Source: a virus
Strand: one strand, 5' to 3'
Length of the DNA: 36,059 bases
Virus record (IMG/VR): IMGVR_UViG_3300037502_000347
Span: 1-36,059 of that record
Shown: positions 1 to 36,059 of the stretch, one piece after another
Numbering within the stretch: position 1 is the stretch's first letter
How the letters are laid out: every line of letters starts with the position of its first letter
Position numbers and translations under genes: made by a program
The notes under the pieces: model-generated
Told to the model about the DNA's origin: nothing
The model's database searches: none
What the model saw: only the letters and a program-made list of their open reading frames with translations

Positions 1-127
1 CCATACGCAATCTGGCGACCTTGCTGATGCCCAGCGAAGCAAGACATGTGTTTCTTTGTGAGAATAGCATTGGCAGTTGTGATAGGACGACCCATAGGGC
101 CAGAGGTAAAGTAATGACTATAAGCAA
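1..127. repeat. Left copy of an exact 127-bp terminal direct repeat (identical to 35933..36059). Interpreted as circular-assembly overlap.
   Basis: Read by eye: ccatacgcaatctggcgacc...aagtaatgactataagcaa occurs at both window ends. The repeat lies inside an open reading frame. Confidence 0.9.
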
Positions 128-572
128 CACCATCAATAACAACAACGTCAAGGAATGGATATACTTCCCAGTCTTGGTACGGTAAATCGTCAATTGACAT
201 CAGCCCTTCTAGTTTACTATCCTCATTGATAGCACGATTGATTCTGTTTTCGTGGTTGCCTAGAGTGAGAACCATTCTAGGTTTGTATTGCTTGTGTTTG
301 TTTTTCTTTGCAGTCTTGTTGTATCTAAAGAGTGGTTCTAGCAACGCATCCATAGCGTCTCTAGCTGCAAATAAATCCTTGGTGTACCTCTTACCCTCAA
401 ATGATTTTAAACCTTTGTCATACGTCGACAACGATTCCATGTCTGCGAAATCGCCTATGCAAATTATTGTGTCGGGCTGTTTTTCTACAATAAAATTTCC
501 AAGGCATTTAAGGAAAGTGAAATCATTACCATCCTTTGCTTGAACATCTGGTATGACTAAGTGTACTGGCAT
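1..572 (-). CDS. Metallophosphoesterase (calcineurin-like), N-terminal 190 codons. Same gene as 35743..36059 across the circular junction (253 aa in total).
   Basis: My translation from the ATG at 572..570 gives MPVHLVIPDVQAKDGNDFTFLKCLGNFIVEKQPDTIICIGDFADMES...MVLTLGNHENRINRAI. It contains the GD and GNHE phosphoesterase motifs. The frame runs off the left edge and is continued exactly by track ORF 35743..36027. The endolysin stop abuts this start (TAA ATG). Confidence 0.8.
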   Translation of the reverse strand, partial: MPVHLVIPDVQAKDGNDFTFLKCLGNFIVEKQPDTIICIGDFADMESLSTYDKGLKSFEGKRYTKDLFAARDAMDALLEPLFRYNKTAKKNKHKQYKPRMVLTLGNHENRINRAINEDSKLEGLMSIDDLPYQDWEVYPFLDVVVIDGVAYSHYFTSGPMGRPITTANAILTKKHMSCFAGHQQGRQIAY

Positions 573-6965: not shown

Positions 6966-8579
6966 TTAAACGCTCCCTAAATCAAGTGTTGTATCTAAGT
7001 CAGATGATGTTACCACACTCTTAGTTGCTAGACTACCTAGGCCAAGAGTTGTTCGTTGTGCTGCCGCATCTGCATCATCTAGTAATGCTTTACCAGCAGT
7101 CGTAATGTTTGCCGCTAACCAATCTAAATCTGTGTCCCATGCTTGCACGTTAGTGCCAATAGCTAATCCAAGATTAGTTCTGGCTGTGGCAGTATTAGTA
7201 AGGTCAGATAAGTTGTTTGCTTTAGCTAGGAATGTGTCACCAGAGGCATAGGCATCTACCCATACAGTACCAGTGTAGACTTTCATTGAGCCACTTACAC
7301 TGTTAAAGTATAAAGCTCCTGCAATCAATGCGTTACCATCGTTATCTACAGAAGGGTCTGATGTCTTAGCGCCAAGGTATCTGTCGTCAAAGTTATCATA
7401 CGCTGTAAGTGTTTGGTCTCTTGCTGTCTCTGCTGCTACTTGTGCATTGCCTGCTGCTGTTGCTGCTGTGCTTGCTGTGCCTGCTGATGTAGCTGCCGCT
7501 TGAGCATGATACTTAGCAGAGTATTCACCACCAGCTACAGTGCCTGATGTCTTAGTTGCCCAGTCATTAGCTAGTGCTGCTGACGCTGCTGCCGCATCTG
7601 CATTTTCTTCTGCATTCTGAATGTCAGCAATGTTGTCTGCAACAGTATTAACGTCTGCAATATTTGTCGCTACAGTATTGACATTAGCAATATTAGTAGC
7701 AACCGTTGTAACATCTGCAATGTCATTTGCTACGGTAACAATGTAACCATCTGGTGTTCCAGTTACGCCTGATGCTGGGTCTGAGATACTTCCTAAATCA
7801 TAGTCAAAACCACTACCACCTAAGTCACTTGCAACAAGCTGAATTTCACCAATGTTATTAGCTACATCATTTACATCTGCAATACTTGCACCAGTAAGAT
7901 TGACGTTAGCAATGTTTGTCGCTACAGTATTAACGTTTGCAGAGTTTGTAGCTAGAGCAGTTACACTGCCAGCAATACCAGCTACTGTTGTTACGTTAGC
8001 ACTAACGTCTGCCACTGCATTAACGTCAGCAATGTTATCTGCAACAGTTGCAATGTCTTGCATGTTGTCAGCAATAGTGTTAATTTGAGATAGGTTAGGG
8101 CCAGCTACTGGATTACCATAAGTCTCATCAAACACCAACACCTTACCACGACGGTTAAGGTATGATGGCAATGTCATGTCAATGCTAGTAGGGTCTGTTA
8201 CTGGAGCCTTGATAGAACGCTCTGCTGTCTCAGCTACCTGTTGAAGTAAGATGGTTTGTGAATCCATCTCATCGTTTAAGGTATTAGCAAAGAAGTCACC
8301 ACCAGTAGTAAAGTCTGTGGTACGCTCAATTGCGCGAGAGCCAACAATAGAGATTTGGTCTGAGCCACTAGCAGCAGATACTAATGTAATAGAACCTGTA
8401 CCAAGTGTAGAGCTAATGTCAACAGTGTAGTCAGTAGTCAGTGTTAATAACGTGCTATTCTTATATATGTCTAAGTCTGTCTCTACCAACACTTCAAAAG
8501 GAAAAGCATAAGGGCCAACGCCAGCAGAGCCTGTGTAGACTATGCGACGAGGTACATTACTAATTGGATAATCTGCCAT
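6966..8579 (-). CDS. Main tail fibre with a particle-attachment N-terminus
   Basis: 537 aa. The N-terminus is NVPRRIVYTGSAGVGPYAFPFEVLVETDLDIYKNSTLLTLTTDYTV. There are two blocks of 10-aa repeats of the NIADVNTVAT type. An Ala-rich coil contains SAKYHAQAAATSA. Confidence 0.75.
   Translation of the reverse strand: MADYPISNVPRRIVYTGSAGVGPYAFPFEVLVETDLDIYKNSTLLTLTTDYTVDISSTLGTGSITLVSAASGSDQISIVGSRAIERTTDFTTGGDFFANTLNDEMDSQTILLQQVAETAERSIKAPVTDPTSIDMTLPSYLNRRGKVLVFDETYGNPVAGPNLSQINTIADNMQDIATVADNIADVNAVADVSANVTTVAGIAGSVTALATNSANVNTVATNIANVNLTGASIADVNDVANNIGEIQLVASDLGGSGFDYDLGSISDPASGVTGTPDGYIVTVANDIADVTTVATNIANVNTVATNIADVNTVADNIADIQNAEENADAAAASAALANDWATKTSGTVAGGEYSAKYHAQAAATSAGTASTAATAAGNAQVAAETARDQTLTAYDNFDDRYLGAKTSDPSVDNDGNALIAGALYFNSVSGSMKVYTGTVWVDAYASGDTFLAKANNLSDLTNTATARTNLGLAIGTNVQAWDTDLDWLAANITTAGKALLDDADAAAQRTTLGLGSLATKSVVTSSDLDTTLDLGSV
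7617..7740 (-). repeat. Intragenic degenerate 30-nt (10-aa) tandem repeats, block 2 of the fibre gene
   Basis: The protein reads NDIADVTTVA/TNIANVNTVA/TNIADVNTVA/DNIADIQNAE. The DNA shows the same periodicity. Boundaries are approximate. Confidence 0.7.
7846..8070 (-). repeat. Intragenic degenerate 30-nt repeats, block 1 of the fibre gene
   Basis: The protein reads DIATVADNIADVNAVADVSANVTTVAGIAGSVTALATNSANVNTVATNIANVN...IADVNDVANNIGE. Boundaries are approximate. Confidence 0.6.
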
Positions 8580-35323: not shown

Positions 35324-35344
35324 AATGTCAAATATACTTTACAT

Positions 35345-35393
35345 AAAAAACCCCTATGCTTGTCTCAGTGTTAGCAGTCCAGAGGCATAGGGG
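35345..35393 (-). terminator. Terminator of the late arm
   Basis: On the minus strand, CCCCTATGC (35393..35385) is followed by a 25-nt loop, GCATAGGGG (35359..35351) and TTTTTT. A second hairpin, AATCCC n4 GGGATT (35396..35411), lies directly upstream. Confidence 0.55.
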
Positions 35394-35409
35394 CGAATCC
35401 CAATAGGGA

Positions 35410-35481
35410 TTACTTATTCATTACATACATTGTAACTTCAAAGCCGAAACGCATTTCAGTTGCTGATGGTTTAGTCCACAT
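35410..35481 (-). CDS. pqqA: PqqA-like peptide (coenzyme PQQ precursor), 23 aa
   Basis: My translation is MWTKPSATEMRFGFEVTMYVMNK. An AGGA SD lies 7 nt upstream. It carries the W.KP and G.EVT.Y signatures, with Glu15 and Tyr19 spaced E-x3-Y as in PqqA. Two hairpins follow the ORF. Confidence 0.75.
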   Translation of the reverse strand: MWTKPSATEMRFGFEVTMYVMNK

Positions 35482-35569
35482 GATGTAGTCCTTAATATAT
35501 GATAAGCAAGATTGCTTGTATGTAATAATCTTCCCAATGTTAAAGACAAGCAATAGAGAAAATCATTAA

Positions 35570-35743
35570 TTAACTATCAAGCATATCTGTTTCAGCATAC
35601 ATGCTCAAGTCATAACCCTCAATGCGTATCATGCCATTGCTAGTTTGGATGTAGATAACTTCATCCTCTGCATCTACTTCTATCTCCTCAATCTCTGAGC
35701 CAAGAAGTAAACTGCATACATCGTATAGGTCTCTCTCAGCCAT
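35570..35743 (-). CDS. Small acidic protein (57 aa)
   Basis: My translation is MAERDLYDVCSLLLGSEIEEIEVDAEDEVIYIQTSNGMIRIEGYDLSMYAETDMLDS. Its start overlaps the phosphoesterase stop (TAATG). It is below the track cutoff. Confidence 0.5.
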   Translation of the reverse strand: MAERDLYDVCSLLLGSEIEEIEVDAEDEVIYIQTSNGMIRIEGYDLSMYAETDMLDS

Positions 35744-36059
35744 TAGTAGTTGTACCTTTCCTTGAGGAACTTGATGGACACAGCCATCTCGTCAAATGAA
35801 CCATCGTGTACGTCATGTAATACATAGAAGCCACGGTAGTGTTGGTTGCCTTGTGGGCCAAGATAATCCTCGTCGTGTTCATAGCATGAGCCACAGATAA
35901 TAGCTGTCATTTCTTTGCCATCCGCCCTCTTGCCATACGCAATCTGGCGACCTTGCTGATGCCCAGCGAAGCAAGACATGTGTTTCTTTGTGAGAATAGC
36001 ATTGGCAGTTGTGATAGGACGACCCATAGGGCCAGAGGTAAAGTAATGACTATAAGCAA
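35743..36059 (-). CDS. Metallophosphoesterase, C-terminal part (same gene as 1..572)
   Basis: Track ORF 35743..36027 is the in-frame tail, containing ...GHQQG...ICGSCYEHDEDYLGP.... The frame stays open to the right edge, and 35933..36059 duplicates 1..127. Confidence 0.8.
   Translation of the reverse strand, partial: AYSHYFTSGPMGRPITTANAILTKKHMSCFAGHQQGRQIAYGKRADGKEMTAIICGSCYEHDEDYLGPQGNQHYRGFYVLHDVHDGSFDEMAVSIKFLKERYNY
35933..36059. repeat. Right copy of the exact 127-bp terminal repeat
   Basis: Identical to 1..127 by eye. Confidence 0.9.

What the first reader, a model, noticed from the sequence alone, without database searches (positions are those of the whole stretch)
35410..35481. Hidden 23-codon ORF encoding a PqqA-like PQQ precursor peptide at the end of the late operon
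The minus strand reads AGGActacatc ATG TGG ACT AAA CCA TCA GCA ACT GAA ATG CGT TTC GGC TTT GAA GVT-frame continuation GTT ACA ATG TAT GTA ATG AAT AAG TAA, which translates to MWTKPSATEMRFGFEVTMYVMNK. The ORF is far below the 60-aa cutoff of the ORF track. From memory, PqqA peptides are 22-29 aa long. They carry W-x-K-P near the N-terminus and G-x-E-V-T-x-Y near the C-terminus. The Glu and Tyr in that motif (E-x3-Y) are cross-linked by the radical-SAM enzyme PqqE to build PQQ. Every one of these positions is present here (Glu15, Tyr19). As with bacterial pqqA, the ORF is followed by stable hairpins. No pqqB, C, D or E gene exists anywhere in this complete genome, so the peptide could only be processed by host enzymes. 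It may act as an auxiliary metabolic gene that raises substrate supply for PQQ, the cofactor of methanol, glucose and alcohol dehydrogenases, during infection. Alternatively it may act as a decoy for PqqD/E. It also points to a PQQ-producing proteobacterial host, for example a methylotroph, Acinetobacter or a pseudomonad. I am not aware of a described phage-borne pqqA.
Basis: partly seen in the sequence, partly recalled or inferred. Interest (0 to 1): 0.88.

Follow-up and report, generated by a model that had tools for sequence, protein, structure and literature searches.

The report
Phage-borne PQQ precursor gene (pqqA)
A 23-codon gene that gene callers miss in this methylotroph-infecting phage encodes a genuine copy of PqqA, the small peptide that bacteria convert into the cofactor PQQ needed to oxidise methanol; the gene is common and conserved in such phages, but viral copies had already been reported from metagenomes.

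Summary
Window 35410-35481 (minus strand) encodes MWTKPSATEMRFGFEVTMYVMNK. It scores about twice the curated cutoffs of both PqqA models (PF08042 43.3 vs 21.1 bits; TIGR02107 40 vs 20).

The window is a complete 35.9-kb podophage genome related to OM43 phage MEP301. It has no pqqB-E, integrase or radical-SAM gene.

The same ORF is present, nearly always unannotated, in cultured Methylophilales phages Venkman, MEP301, MEP401/402, P19250A and Melnitz. None of the 122 phage/viral loci screened has pqqB-E nearby.

Selection acts on the peptide. pN/pS is 0.24 on unbiased codons, against 0.22 in hosts. Glu15, Tyr19, Trp2, Pro5 and ORF length are invariant in reciprocal unbiased scans. Conservation covers only the ORF plus RBS. 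Fifty of 74 relatives chosen through a neighbouring gene keep it, and the rest lack it cleanly.

Best explanation: an auxiliary metabolic gene that feeds extra precursor into the host PqqBCDE pathway. This mimics the 3-12 orphan pqqA copies of Methylophilaceae. The function is inferred and has not been shown.

Viral PqqA was reported for Lake Baikal methylotroph viruses in 2020, and NCBI already names this exact peptide PqqA.

The parts
35410..35481 (-). pqqA: 23 codons plus TAA, encoding MWTKPSATEMRFGFEVTMYVMNK. Glu15 and Tyr19 are the PQQ-forming residues. Trp2 to Pro5 is the leader motif.
   Evidence: Translation. PF08042 43.3 bits, E 3e-11. TIGR02107 40 bits. Conserved in phages and viral contigs.
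35489..35493 (-). Shine-Dalgarno sequence AAGGA, 7 nt upstream of the ATG.
   Evidence: Read from the sequence. The AAGGA/AGGAG block is the only conserved upstream feature in both viral and host copies (information profile). Phage-host DNA similarity stops about 15 nt upstream of the ATG.
35344..35411 (-). Termination zone. A small hairpin overlaps the stop codon (35396-35411). It is followed by a 10-bp G+C-rich stem (35350-35394) with a U6 tail (35344-35349). This zone also ends the convergent plus-strand genes.
   Evidence: Fold -26.4 kcal/mol, z = -2.59. The small hairpin is flagged as terminator-like on the + strand. A hairpin plus T-run within 100 nt downstream occurs in 66/119 viral and 112/127 host copies. 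The sequence itself is not conserved beyond the stop codon.
35482..35569 (-). 88-nt spacer between the 57-aa ORF and pqqA. It holds a weak sigma-70-like match (ATTACA-16-TATCAT, 35526-35499) and a small palindrome, AAGCAA-tc-TTGCTT (35504-35517). Whether pqqA has its own promoter here is unresolved.
   Evidence: Promoter scan gives a 9/12 match, no more than in shuffles. The final T of the -10 box is C in close relatives L083 and L024. The region folds no better than shuffles, z = 0.09. A subset of viral copies shares about 45 nt upstream.
35570..35743 (-). 57-aa ORF immediately upstream on the same strand. Function unknown. It is part of the same late-strand gene string.
   Evidence: ORF list. 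The identical protein is found on at least 20 public contigs, always followed by pqqA 82-88 nt downstream in the 8 examined.
35743..36059 (-). 3' part of a 253-aa metallophosphoesterase gene. The gene continues across the linearisation point into window 128-572 (minus strand). It is the neighbour used for the unbiased retention test.
   Evidence: Reconstructed on the circularised sequence. phrog_221 metallo-phosphoesterase. PF00149 in homologous loci. MEP301 gp11 is the counterpart.

Best explanation
This is a functional, stand-alone copy of pqqA carried by a lytic-type podophage of Methylophilaceae (the OM43/LD28 methylotroph clade). I propose it acts as an auxiliary metabolic gene. During infection the 23-residue peptide is translated from its own strong ribosome-binding site. 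Transcription is either read-through from the late/lysis gene string or comes from a weak local promoter, and it ends at the hairpin-U6 terminator. The host chaperone PqqD binds the peptide. Host radical-SAM enzyme PqqE cross-links Glu15 to Tyr19, and host proteases, PqqB and PqqC finish the conversion to PQQ. One PqqA molecule is consumed per PQQ made, whereas the enzymes are reusable. Precursor supply is therefore the step most exposed to loss of host transcription. Methylophilaceae themselves already boost this step by gene dosage, with 3-12 pqqA copies per single pqqBCDE. The phage copy would keep or raise PQQ supply for the periplasmic methanol dehydrogenases (XoxF/MxaF) that power the cell, and so phage production. 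Shown here: sequence identity as PqqA, purifying selection on the peptide, stand-alone status, wide distribution in methylotroph phages, and a host clade that has pqqBCDE. Inferred: transcription and translation during infection, processing by host enzymes, and any effect on PQQ level or burst size.
For: The ORF passes PF08042 and the TIGR02107 equivalog model at about twice their cutoffs. The identical or a 77-96% identical peptide is encoded in Venkman, P19250A, MEP301, MEP401/402, four Melnitz myophages and an environmental podophage. All matches lie in 23-25-codon ORFs. Third codon positions vary 3-4 times more than first and second positions. pN/pS is 0.16 overall and 0.24 on the 14 codons my pattern did not fix, matching host copies at 0.22. 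Arg11 switches among CGT, AGA and CGC. In reciprocal scans free of ascertainment, Glu15, Thr17, Tyr19 and the stop position are invariant in 122/122 hits, and Met-Trp...Pro5 in 144/144. Conservation among unrelated phages, and between phage and host, covers only the ORF plus RBS. None of the 122 phage/viral loci screened, nor the window, has PqqB-E, whereas 26 host loci do. In relatives chosen through the neighbouring phosphoesterase gene, 50/74 retain an intact same-strand copy, including 19/19 of the closest. 8/8 strains with an identical 57-aa neighbour have it. The host clade is Methylophilaceae, with verified pqqABCDE operons. Literature: Methylophilaceae have 3-12 pqqA copies and one pqqBCDE (PMC4109929). 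Orphan copies are highly expressed (PMC9851590). PqqA availability is reported as rate-determining in Methylovorus MP688 (Ge 2015, as cited in PMC11317620). Viral PqqA was proposed as an AMG in Baikal methylotroph viruses (PMC7678222).
Against: There is no expression, peptide or PQQ measurement for any phage copy. The gene is not universal: 24/74 relatives lack it, without remnants, so it is dispensable. A promoter for the window copy is not convincingly predicted. It is not known whether extra PQQ made late in infection could be exported and loaded into dehydrogenase quickly enough to matter. In Methylorubrum extorquens AM1 the operon pqqA was reported as non-essential, although orphan copies were not examined (cited in PMC11317620). 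OM43 hosts are routinely grown with 1 nM added PQQ, so isolates clearly replicate when PQQ is supplied externally.
Confidence: 0.65

Rival explanations
1. Decoy or inhibitor. The phage peptide binds host PqqD/PqqE but blocks or diverts PQQ synthesis, for example to save S-adenosylmethionine and reducing power or to shut down host metabolism.
For: The leader motif thought to engage PqqD (Trp2, Pro5) is invariant. The phage carries none of the downstream enzymes.
Against: A non-processable decoy should tolerate or favour loss of the cross-linked residues. Yet Glu15, Thr17 and Tyr19 are invariant in 122/122 copies sampled through the leader only. Constraint is the same as on host copies (pN/pS 0.24 vs 0.22). 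Many phage peptides are identical to host peptides. Cutting the energy supply of a methylotroph host would not obviously help a phage.
Confidence: 0.07
2. The peptide, or PQQ made from it, serves a purpose other than feeding methanol dehydrogenase. Examples are lanthanide handling, redox protection, or use as a cue. Alternatively, PqqA has a second, PQQ-independent role in these bacteria that explains the many orphan copies.
For: Orphan pqqA copies in M. extorquens respond to lanthanide availability independently of the pqq enzymes, and those authors speculate about a role in lanthanide uptake (PMC11317620). The reason for 3-12 copies in Methylophilaceae is not established.
Against: Nothing in the sequence points to a function beyond a canonical PqqA. 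The invariant residues are exactly those needed for PQQ formation.
Confidence: 0.12
3. Homology patch. The 72-nt segment is kept as DNA homologous to the multi-copy host pqqA loci, to promote recombination or integration with the host chromosome. It often lies beside the phage Sak/Erf-exonuclease recombination module.
For: In the window, Venkman, MEP301 and many IMG/VR contigs the gene sits next to Sak/Erf and YqaJ-type exonuclease genes. Hosts carry several copies that could serve as targets.
Against: Variation is concentrated at synonymous sites (pS about 0.6-0.7), so the peptide is conserved and the DNA is not. The longest exact run between the window ORF and any of 131 host copies is 29 nt, median 15. 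No integrase is present in the window. No host locus contains window-like phage genes. The start codon, RBS, stop position and reading frame are always intact.
Confidence: 0.04
4. Neutral passenger or chance ORF. This would be a recently captured scrap of host DNA, or a fortuitous short ORF, with no function in the phage.
For: The gene is short, usually unannotated, and absent from about a third of relatives.
Against: HMM E-values are 3e-11 and 2e-10, and the pattern is expected 0.00 times by chance. There are 237 distinct nucleotide versions in viral contigs, all intact. Purifying selection equals that of host copies. The gene is present in podo-, sipho- and myo-type methylophages. Relatives without the gene show clean absence, with no decaying remnants.
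Confidence: 0.02

Closest known systems
Orphan (stand-alone) pqqA copies of Methylophilaceae chromosomes (3-12 per genome; Methylovorus MP688 and Methylobacillus-type strains with five copies)
   Same: Same peptide subfamily (WT[K/T/S]Pxx[T]EMRFGFEVTMY...), and often the identical 23-residue sequence. Same solitary arrangement: RBS, 23 codons, hairpin, with no pqqB after it. Same level of purifying selection.
   Different: It is located in a phage genome, between lysis and recombination genes. Its flanks share no similarity with host loci, so any regulation is phage-specific.
Viral PqqA of Lake Baikal viral population VP_266 (Coutinho et al. 2020, Microbiome, PMC7678222); pqqA listed among viral AMGs in a reservoir sediment virome (PMC13188868)
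   Same: A virus of a methylotroph carries the PQQ precursor peptide gene without a complete pqq pathway, and it was interpreted as an AMG supporting methanol oxidation.
   Different: The related Baikal population VP_139, and per that paper representatives of both populations, also carried a methanol dehydrogenase gene and SAM-cycle genes. This 36-kb podophage carries pqqA alone. I could not compare sequences because the Baikal contigs were not retrieved.
Unannotated pqqA ORFs in cultured methylophages: Venkman (MT375522 9977-10045), MEP301 (MW452941 3316-3384), MEP401/402, P19250A (KX815270 28085-28153), Melnitz (MZ577095 74888-74953)
   Same: The peptide is homologous, and identical in Venkman. 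It is stand-alone and conserved. MEP301 is the closest isolate to the window (TerL 80% aa identity) and has the gene in the same lysis/recombination boundary region.
   Different: In Venkman and MEP301 the immediately adjacent annotated genes are on the opposite strand, so those copies must have their own promoter. In Melnitz it lies among small genes and tRNAs in a 141-kb myophage. The MEP301, MEP401/402 and Melnitz papers do not mention pqqA, and the Venkman paper showed no occurrence of the term in a literature search.
Cyanophage psbA (D1 protein), a functional analogy only
   Same: This comparison rests on established knowledge and is an analogy drawn by me.
   Different: The protein, pathway and host are unrelated. 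psbA expression and benefit during infection have been shown experimentally; for phage pqqA they have not.

Membership tests
PqqA (Pfam PF08042; NCBIfam TIGR02107 equivalog) | Scores above the curated family cutoffs | tested here: met
   PF08042 43.3 bits against a cutoff of 21.1, full-length match 1-19/19. TIGR02107 40 bits against a cutoff of 20, 1-21/21.
PqqA (Pfam PF08042; NCBIfam TIGR02107 equivalog) | Very short ribosomal peptide (about 20-40 residues) with its own start codon, RBS and stop | tested here: met
   23 codons, AAGGA 7 nt upstream, TAA stop. Length is 23-25 codons in the first 123 viral/phage pattern matches, and the stop position is fixed in 122/122 leader-only hits.
PqqA (Pfam PF08042; NCBIfam TIGR02107 equivalog) | Conserved Glu and Tyr separated by three residues (E-x-x-x-Y), the atoms of which become PQQ | tested here: met
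   Glu15 and Tyr19 are present. They are invariant in 122/122 viral copies sampled by the leader only, so without selection for the core.
PqqA (Pfam PF08042; NCBIfam TIGR02107 equivalog) | N-terminal leader with the conserved Trp...Pro motif, used for recognition by PqqD | tested here: met
   Trp2 and Pro5 are invariant in 144/144 copies sampled by the core and tail only. Lys4 is replaceable by Thr or Ser, and the Thr form also occurs in bona fide host PqqA.
PqqA (Pfam PF08042; NCBIfam TIGR02107 equivalog) | Genomic linkage to pqqBCDE (the classical operon context) | tested here: not met
   No PqqB-E in the window or in the 122 phage/viral loci screened. This linkage is typical but not obligatory: Methylophilaceae carry 3-12 pqqA copies for one pqqBCDE (PMC4109929), and most host copies fetched here are also solitary.
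PqqA (Pfam PF08042; NCBIfam TIGR02107 equivalog) | Is bound by PqqD, cross-linked by PqqE and converted to PQQ | not testable with these tools
   Needs biochemistry or genetics. See the decisive next steps.
Phage auxiliary metabolic gene (AMG) | Homologue of a host metabolic gene located inside a bona fide phage genome, flanked by phage genes | tested here: met
   Complete genome with terminal overlap, terminase, portal, capsid, tail, endolysin, Sak, exonuclease and SSB genes. pqqA lies between the lysis and recombination modules. Neighbours are conserved in relatives.
Phage auxiliary metabolic gene (AMG) | Maintained by purifying selection across phage lineages | tested here: met
   pN/pS is 0.16 overall and 0.24 on unbiased codons. 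Retention is 50/74 in relatives chosen through a neighbouring gene, always intact.
Phage auxiliary metabolic gene (AMG) | Expressed during infection and alters host metabolism | not testable with these tools
   No transcriptome or proteome data were accessible. The promoter prediction is inconclusive.
Moron (independent promoter-gene-terminator cassette in a phage genome) | Own promoter and own terminator flanking a non-essential gene | tested here: inconclusive
   A terminator-like hairpin with U6 is present, and the gene shows presence/absence variation among relatives. The promoter match is weak and not conserved in close relatives. In Venkman and MEP301 the adjacent annotated genes are on the opposite strand, which implies an own promoter there.

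The most novel reading that the evidence does not exclude
pqqA may be a signature auxiliary gene of methylotroph phages, playing the role psbA plays in cyanophages. It would be the smallest known AMG, at 23 codons. It is carried by unrelated podo-, sipho- and myo-type phages of OM43/LD28 and other Methylophilaceae, and it has been overlooked because gene callers skip it or call a spurious antisense ORF. Its presence would then be both a host-prediction marker for uncultured viruses and evidence that precursor-peptide supply limits PQQ, and hence methanol oxidation, in infected cells in the sea and in lakes.
Probability: 0.45. Interest if true: 0.7.

Novelty: new member of a known kind. Interest (0 to 1): 0.55.

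Why it matters
OM43 and LD28 methylotrophs are abundant consumers of methanol and other C1 compounds in coastal seas and lakes, and their energy metabolism depends on PQQ-containing dehydrogenases. If phages top up the consumable PQQ precursor, viral infection directly tunes C1 oxidation. It would also mean that precursor supply, and not enzyme capacity, limits cofactor synthesis. On the practical side, the gene is missed in nearly all phage records that carry it: the phage records for Venkman, MEP301, MEP401/402 and P19250A show no feature there, and Melnitz and MW202481 carry a wrong antisense call. It is also a strong host marker for Methylophilaceae viruses. Finally, cultured phage-host pairs already exist, so the hypothesis can be tested directly. 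The standard OM43 medium contains added PQQ, which could have hidden any phenotype.

Tried and rejected
I worked around this with degenerate DNA patterns and with neighbouring genes.

2. Lys4-to-Thr/Ser variants looked phage-specific (82 of 268 viral copies against 0 of 131 host copies). However, my host scan required Lys, and an exact look-up showed that the Thr form is a normal host PqqA in Ca. Methylopumilus universalis and Methylotenera versatilis. I rejected this as a phage-specific feature.

3. The upstream palindrome AAGCAA-tc-TTGCTT, and similar small inverted repeats in other phage copies, might have been a regulatory hairpin or an operator. The region folds no better than shuffles (z = 0.09), the half-site spacing varies, and there are too few sequence types for a covariation test. 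I did not pursue it.

4. Sigma-70 promoter prediction for the window copy gave a 9/12 match, no more than the shuffle expectation, and its -10 terminal T is not conserved in the closest relatives. This is inconclusive.

5. I asked whether the host 'orphan' copies were really window-like prophages. No host locus shares any protein with the window, so this is rejected for this phage type.

6. Known structured RNA or tRNA at the site: no Rfam match and no tRNA anywhere in the window.

7. A nucleotide tree of host against phage copies was not attempted. Sixty-nine informative nucleotides with saturated synonymous sites cannot resolve the number of acquisitions.
Full report

Yes. The minus strand of window 35410-35481 reads ATG TGG ACT AAA CCA ... 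AAT AAG TAA. An AAGGA Shine-Dalgarno sequence lies 7 nt before the ATG.

A degenerate DNA pattern for the PqqA-defining residues (W-x-K-P ... G-x-E-V-T-x-Y) matches once in the window. It matched zero times in 100 dinucleotide-preserving shuffles.

The peptide hits Pfam PqqA (PF08042) at 43.3 bits, E 3e-11, against a gathering cutoff of 21.1, over the full model. It hits the NCBIfam equivalog model TIGR02107 at 40 bits against a cutoff of 20.

No Rfam family and no tRNA lies here or anywhere else in the window.

**2. What genome is this, and where does the gene sit?**

Positions 1-127 and 35933-36059 are identical. The window is therefore a closed genome of 35,932 bp.

It encodes large and small terminase subunits, a portal or head-tail adaptor, a T7-type scaffold, a major head protein, tail and tail-fibre proteins, an endolysin, a DNA methyltransferase, a Sak-like annealing protein, a YqaJ/RecE-type exonuclease, an SSB and a DUF3310 protein. 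The large terminase is 80% identical to that of OM43 phage MEP301, and the next best hit is only 44%.

On the minus strand the order is: structural genes, endolysin (573-1139), a 253-aa metallophosphoesterase that crosses the linearisation point (128-572 plus 35743-36059), a 57-aa ORF (35570-35743), pqqA, and then two hairpins. The second hairpin has a 10-bp G+C-rich stem followed by U6. The plus-strand early and recombination genes converge on the same spot. 'End of the late operon' is therefore a fair description.

No PqqB, C, D or E homologue exists in the genome (tblastn with verified Methylophilaceae proteins). No radical-SAM enzyme or integrase was seen among the larger ORFs.

**3. Is it a conserved gene or a chance ORF?**

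*Cultured and deposited phages.* A tblastn search of 50,697 phage records found 12 records with a match:
- identical in Methylophilales phage Venkman;
- 96% in an environmental podophage (MW202481);
- 91% in P19250A (host LD28) and in MEP301;
- 87% in MEP401 and MEP402;
- 77% in the four 141-kb Melnitz myophages;
- 72% in two Acinetobacter phage contigs.

In Venkman, P19250A, MEP301 and MEP401/402 nothing is annotated at this position. In Melnitz and MW202481 a spurious ORF on the opposite strand was called instead.

Together with loci fetched through a neighbouring gene, I hold 268 viral copies with 237 distinct nucleotide sequences. All of the first 123 viral/phage matches lie in an ORF of 23-25 codons.

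None of the 122 phage and viral loci screened contains PqqB-E, whereas 26 of the host loci do. Fifty-five of those loci share phage genes with the window, and no host locus does.

**4. Is selection acting on the peptide?**

- Among 99 distinct viral ORFs, mean pairwise differences per site are 0.129, 0.089 and 0.382 at codon positions 1, 2 and 3.
- Pooled pN/pS is 0.16.
- My search pattern fixed eight codons, so I repeated the calculation on the 14 free codons. The result is 0.24 for viral copies and 0.22 for host copies.
- Arg11 is encoded by CGT, AGA or CGC. This means the amino acid is conserved while the DNA varies.

To remove circularity about the catalytic residues I ran two reciprocal scans:
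- A pattern covering only codons 1-14 gave 122 hits. All of them continue E-[V/I]-T-[M/L]-Y, then four residues, then a stop.
- A pattern covering only codons 10-23 gave 144 hits. All of them are preceded by M(x)-W-x-x-P.

So Glu15, Thr17, Tyr19, Trp2, Pro5 and the ORF length are conserved in samples not selected for them.

Similarity among otherwise unrelated phages, and between phage and host DNA, covers only the ORF plus about 12-15 nt of RBS. A subset of viral contigs extends to about 45 nt upstream. In all cases it ends at the stop codon.

**5. Is it retained in relatives?**

All the loci above were chosen because they contain pqqA. I therefore also fetched 80 relatives through the neighbouring metallophosphoesterase, at 73-100% identity.
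- Of 74 with enough downstream sequence, 50 carry an intact pqqA on the same strand, 90 nt to 3.9 kb downstream.
- All 19 assessable loci with at least 89% identity in the neighbouring gene have it.
- The 24 without it show no remnant by tblastn or blastn.

It is thus an accessory gene: either present and intact, or cleanly absent.

Eight of eight public contigs that encode the identical 57-aa neighbour have pqqA 82-88 nt downstream. It sits in a gap of about 245 nt where the JGI and ENA gene callers called nothing. Alleles differ among these strains (Ser or Ala at position 6, Phe or Tyr at 12, and tails VMNK, IMNK or ICNR).

**6. Host clade**

A scan of one genome per GTDB species with the subfamily pattern returned almost only Methylophilaceae. 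These included Methylophilus, Methylotenera, Methylobacillus, Methylovorus, Novimethylophilus, Ca. Methylopumilus, the OM43 isolate LSUCC0135 and the marine MAG TMED22.

Locus L200 is a verified pqqABCDE operon. Ca. Methylopumilus universalis (L223) also has the full operon, and TMED22 (L179) shows pqqB and pqqC up to the end of the held sequence. Most host copies are solitary. That agrees with the published count of 3-12 pqqA genes per single pqqBCDE in this family (PMC4109929).

The most common host peptide differs from the window's at one residue (Ala6 for Ser6). The best host ORFs are 92% identical in DNA, against 97-99% for the best viral copies.

**7. How it most likely works**

Established knowledge: PQQ is built from the Glu and Tyr of PqqA. 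PqqD presents the peptide to the radical-SAM enzyme PqqE, which makes the C-C cross-link, and proteases, PqqB and PqqC complete the cofactor. One peptide is consumed per PQQ, while the enzymes turn over.

Evidence from the literature:
- Methylophilaceae amplify the precursor gene and not the enzymes.
- Orphan copies can be among the most highly expressed (PMC9851590).
- PqqA availability has been reported as rate-determining in Methylovorus MP688 (Ge et al. 2015, as cited in PMC11317620).

A phage that adds one more orphan pqqA, with a good RBS and a terminator, copies the host's own strategy. It would keep precursor flowing when host transcription declines. This would sustain the PQQ-dependent methanol dehydrogenases that supply energy. 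I put this at 0.65.

Identity as PqqA, selection on the peptide, stand-alone status, distribution and host clade are shown here. Expression, processing and benefit are inferred.

Transcription of the window copy may be read-through from the late genes. The local promoter match is weak and is not conserved in the closest relatives. In Venkman and MEP301 the immediately adjacent annotated genes are on the opposite strand, so those copies must have their own promoter.

**8. Rivals**

- *Decoy for PqqD/E.* This is disfavoured because the residues that get cross-linked are invariant, constraint equals that on host copies, and many phage peptides are identical to host ones.
- *Homology patch for recombination with host pqqA loci.* The frequent neighbourhood of Sak/Erf-exonuclease genes suggests it. 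It is contradicted by saturated synonymous divergence, short exact matches (maximum 29 nt, median 15), the absence of an integrase, and reading frames that are always intact.
- *Neutral passenger or chance ORF.* This is excluded.
- *A PQQ-independent role.* A role for PqqA peptides in, for example, lanthanide metabolism cannot be excluded.

**9. Comparison with what is known, and novelty**

The gene meets every sequence-level criterion of the PqqA family. The one feature it lacks, linkage to pqqBCDE, is also lacking in most host copies.

Phage-borne pqqA is not unprecedented:
- Coutinho et al. (2020) reported PqqA in a Lake Baikal viral population predicted to infect methylotrophs and proposed it as an AMG (PMC7678222).
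- A 2026 reservoir virome lists pqqA among viral AMGs (PMC13188868).
- NCBI's pipeline has already named this exact 23-mer 'PqqA [Methylophilaceae bacterium]' on contigs up to 36,193 nt. That is about the size of this phage, so these may be phage contigs binned into MAGs (not verified).

What does appear to be unreported in the searchable literature is the following. The gene is present in six cultured Methylophilales phages (nine records) of three morphotypes. It is missed or mis-annotated in all those records. It is widespread and under purifying selection in uncultured relatives. The MEP301, MEP401/402 and Melnitz papers do not mention it. The Venkman paper contained no occurrence of the term in a literature search. 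A search for pqqA, phage and Methylophilales together found nothing relevant.

I therefore class the finding as a new member of a known kind, with moderate interest (0.55). It is a solid, testable and overlooked AMG, but it is not a new type of system.

**10. Practical remark**

The medium used for the OM43 hosts contains 1 nM PQQ. This could mask any phenotype of the phage gene, so tests should be done without it.

Noticed in passing
window 1-127 and 35933-36059; gene at 128-572 plus 35743-36059 (minus strand): The window ends in a perfect 127-nt direct repeat, so it is a circularly closed genome of 35,932 bp. The cut falls inside a 253-aa metallophosphoesterase gene (counterpart of MEP301 gp11). 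In the linear window this gene appears only as a 94-aa C-terminal fragment.
   Followed up: yes
MW202481.1 2067-2195 (UOF77531.1; locus L002) and Melnitz-1 MZ577095.1 74848-74943 (Melnitz1EXVC043M_151; locus L244): In both records a 'hypothetical protein' is annotated on the strand opposite to pqqA and overlapping it. These look like spurious antisense calls that hide the real 23-24-codon gene. In the Venkman, MEP301, MEP401/402 and P19250A records nothing is annotated at the site.
   Followed up: partly
IMG/VR loci fetched, e.g. L356-L360, L374, L412-L419; MEP301 locus L243 2501-2569: About 30% of the viral copies I hold (82 of 268) have Thr or Ser in place of Lys4 of the W-x-K-P motif, including isolate MEP301 (MWTSPKATE...). 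The Thr form is also a normal host PqqA (Ca. Methylopumilus universalis, Methylotenera versatilis), so Lys4 is not essential in this subfamily. The Ser forms I looked up were not found in the protein collection.
   Followed up: partly
loci L422-L429 and L342-L343 (strains with an identical 57-aa or phosphoesterase neighbour): Phage strains whose neighbouring genes are identical carry different pqqA alleles (tails VMNK, IMNK or ICNR; an MNM- N-terminal extension in some). This suggests that alleles are exchanged by recombination independently of the flanks.
   Followed up: no
window 35504-35517 (minus strand), and equivalent positions in L002, L075, L108, L118: There is a small inverted repeat about 20-35 nt upstream of the ATG (AAGCAA-tc-TTGCTT here; CAGGCAA-a-TTGCTTG and CAAGC-n6-GCTTG in other phage copies). 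In Venkman-like copies a different repeat (CCTTG...CAAGG) overlaps the Shine-Dalgarno sequence. The window's upstream region folds no better than shuffles (z = 0.09), so its significance is unknown.
   Followed up: partly
NCBI proteins MDA9097079.1, NBW28881.1, NDB58189.1: The exact window peptide is on record as 'PqqA [Methylophilaceae bacterium]' on 9 contigs, the longest 36,193 nt. That is about the length of this phage, so some MAGs labelled Methylophilaceae probably contain this phage's genome as a binned contig.
   Followed up: no
window 7611-7731 (within the tail-fibre gene 6966-8579, minus strand): Four head-to-tail copies of a degenerate 30-nt unit (about 68-71% identity to a reference copy at 8013-8043) lie inside the tail-fibre ORF. 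They probably encode a 10-residue structural repeat.
   Followed up: no
IMG/VR loci L004, L010, L013, L017, L018, L095, L112; Acinetobacter phage MD-2021a (CAKLQF020000010.1 108210-108263): A minority of viral pqqA copies belong to other PqqA subfamilies (e.g. [47 protein letters not shown]). These resemble gammaproteobacterial types as I recall them, so phage carriage of pqqA may not be limited to Methylophilaceae viruses.
   Followed up: no
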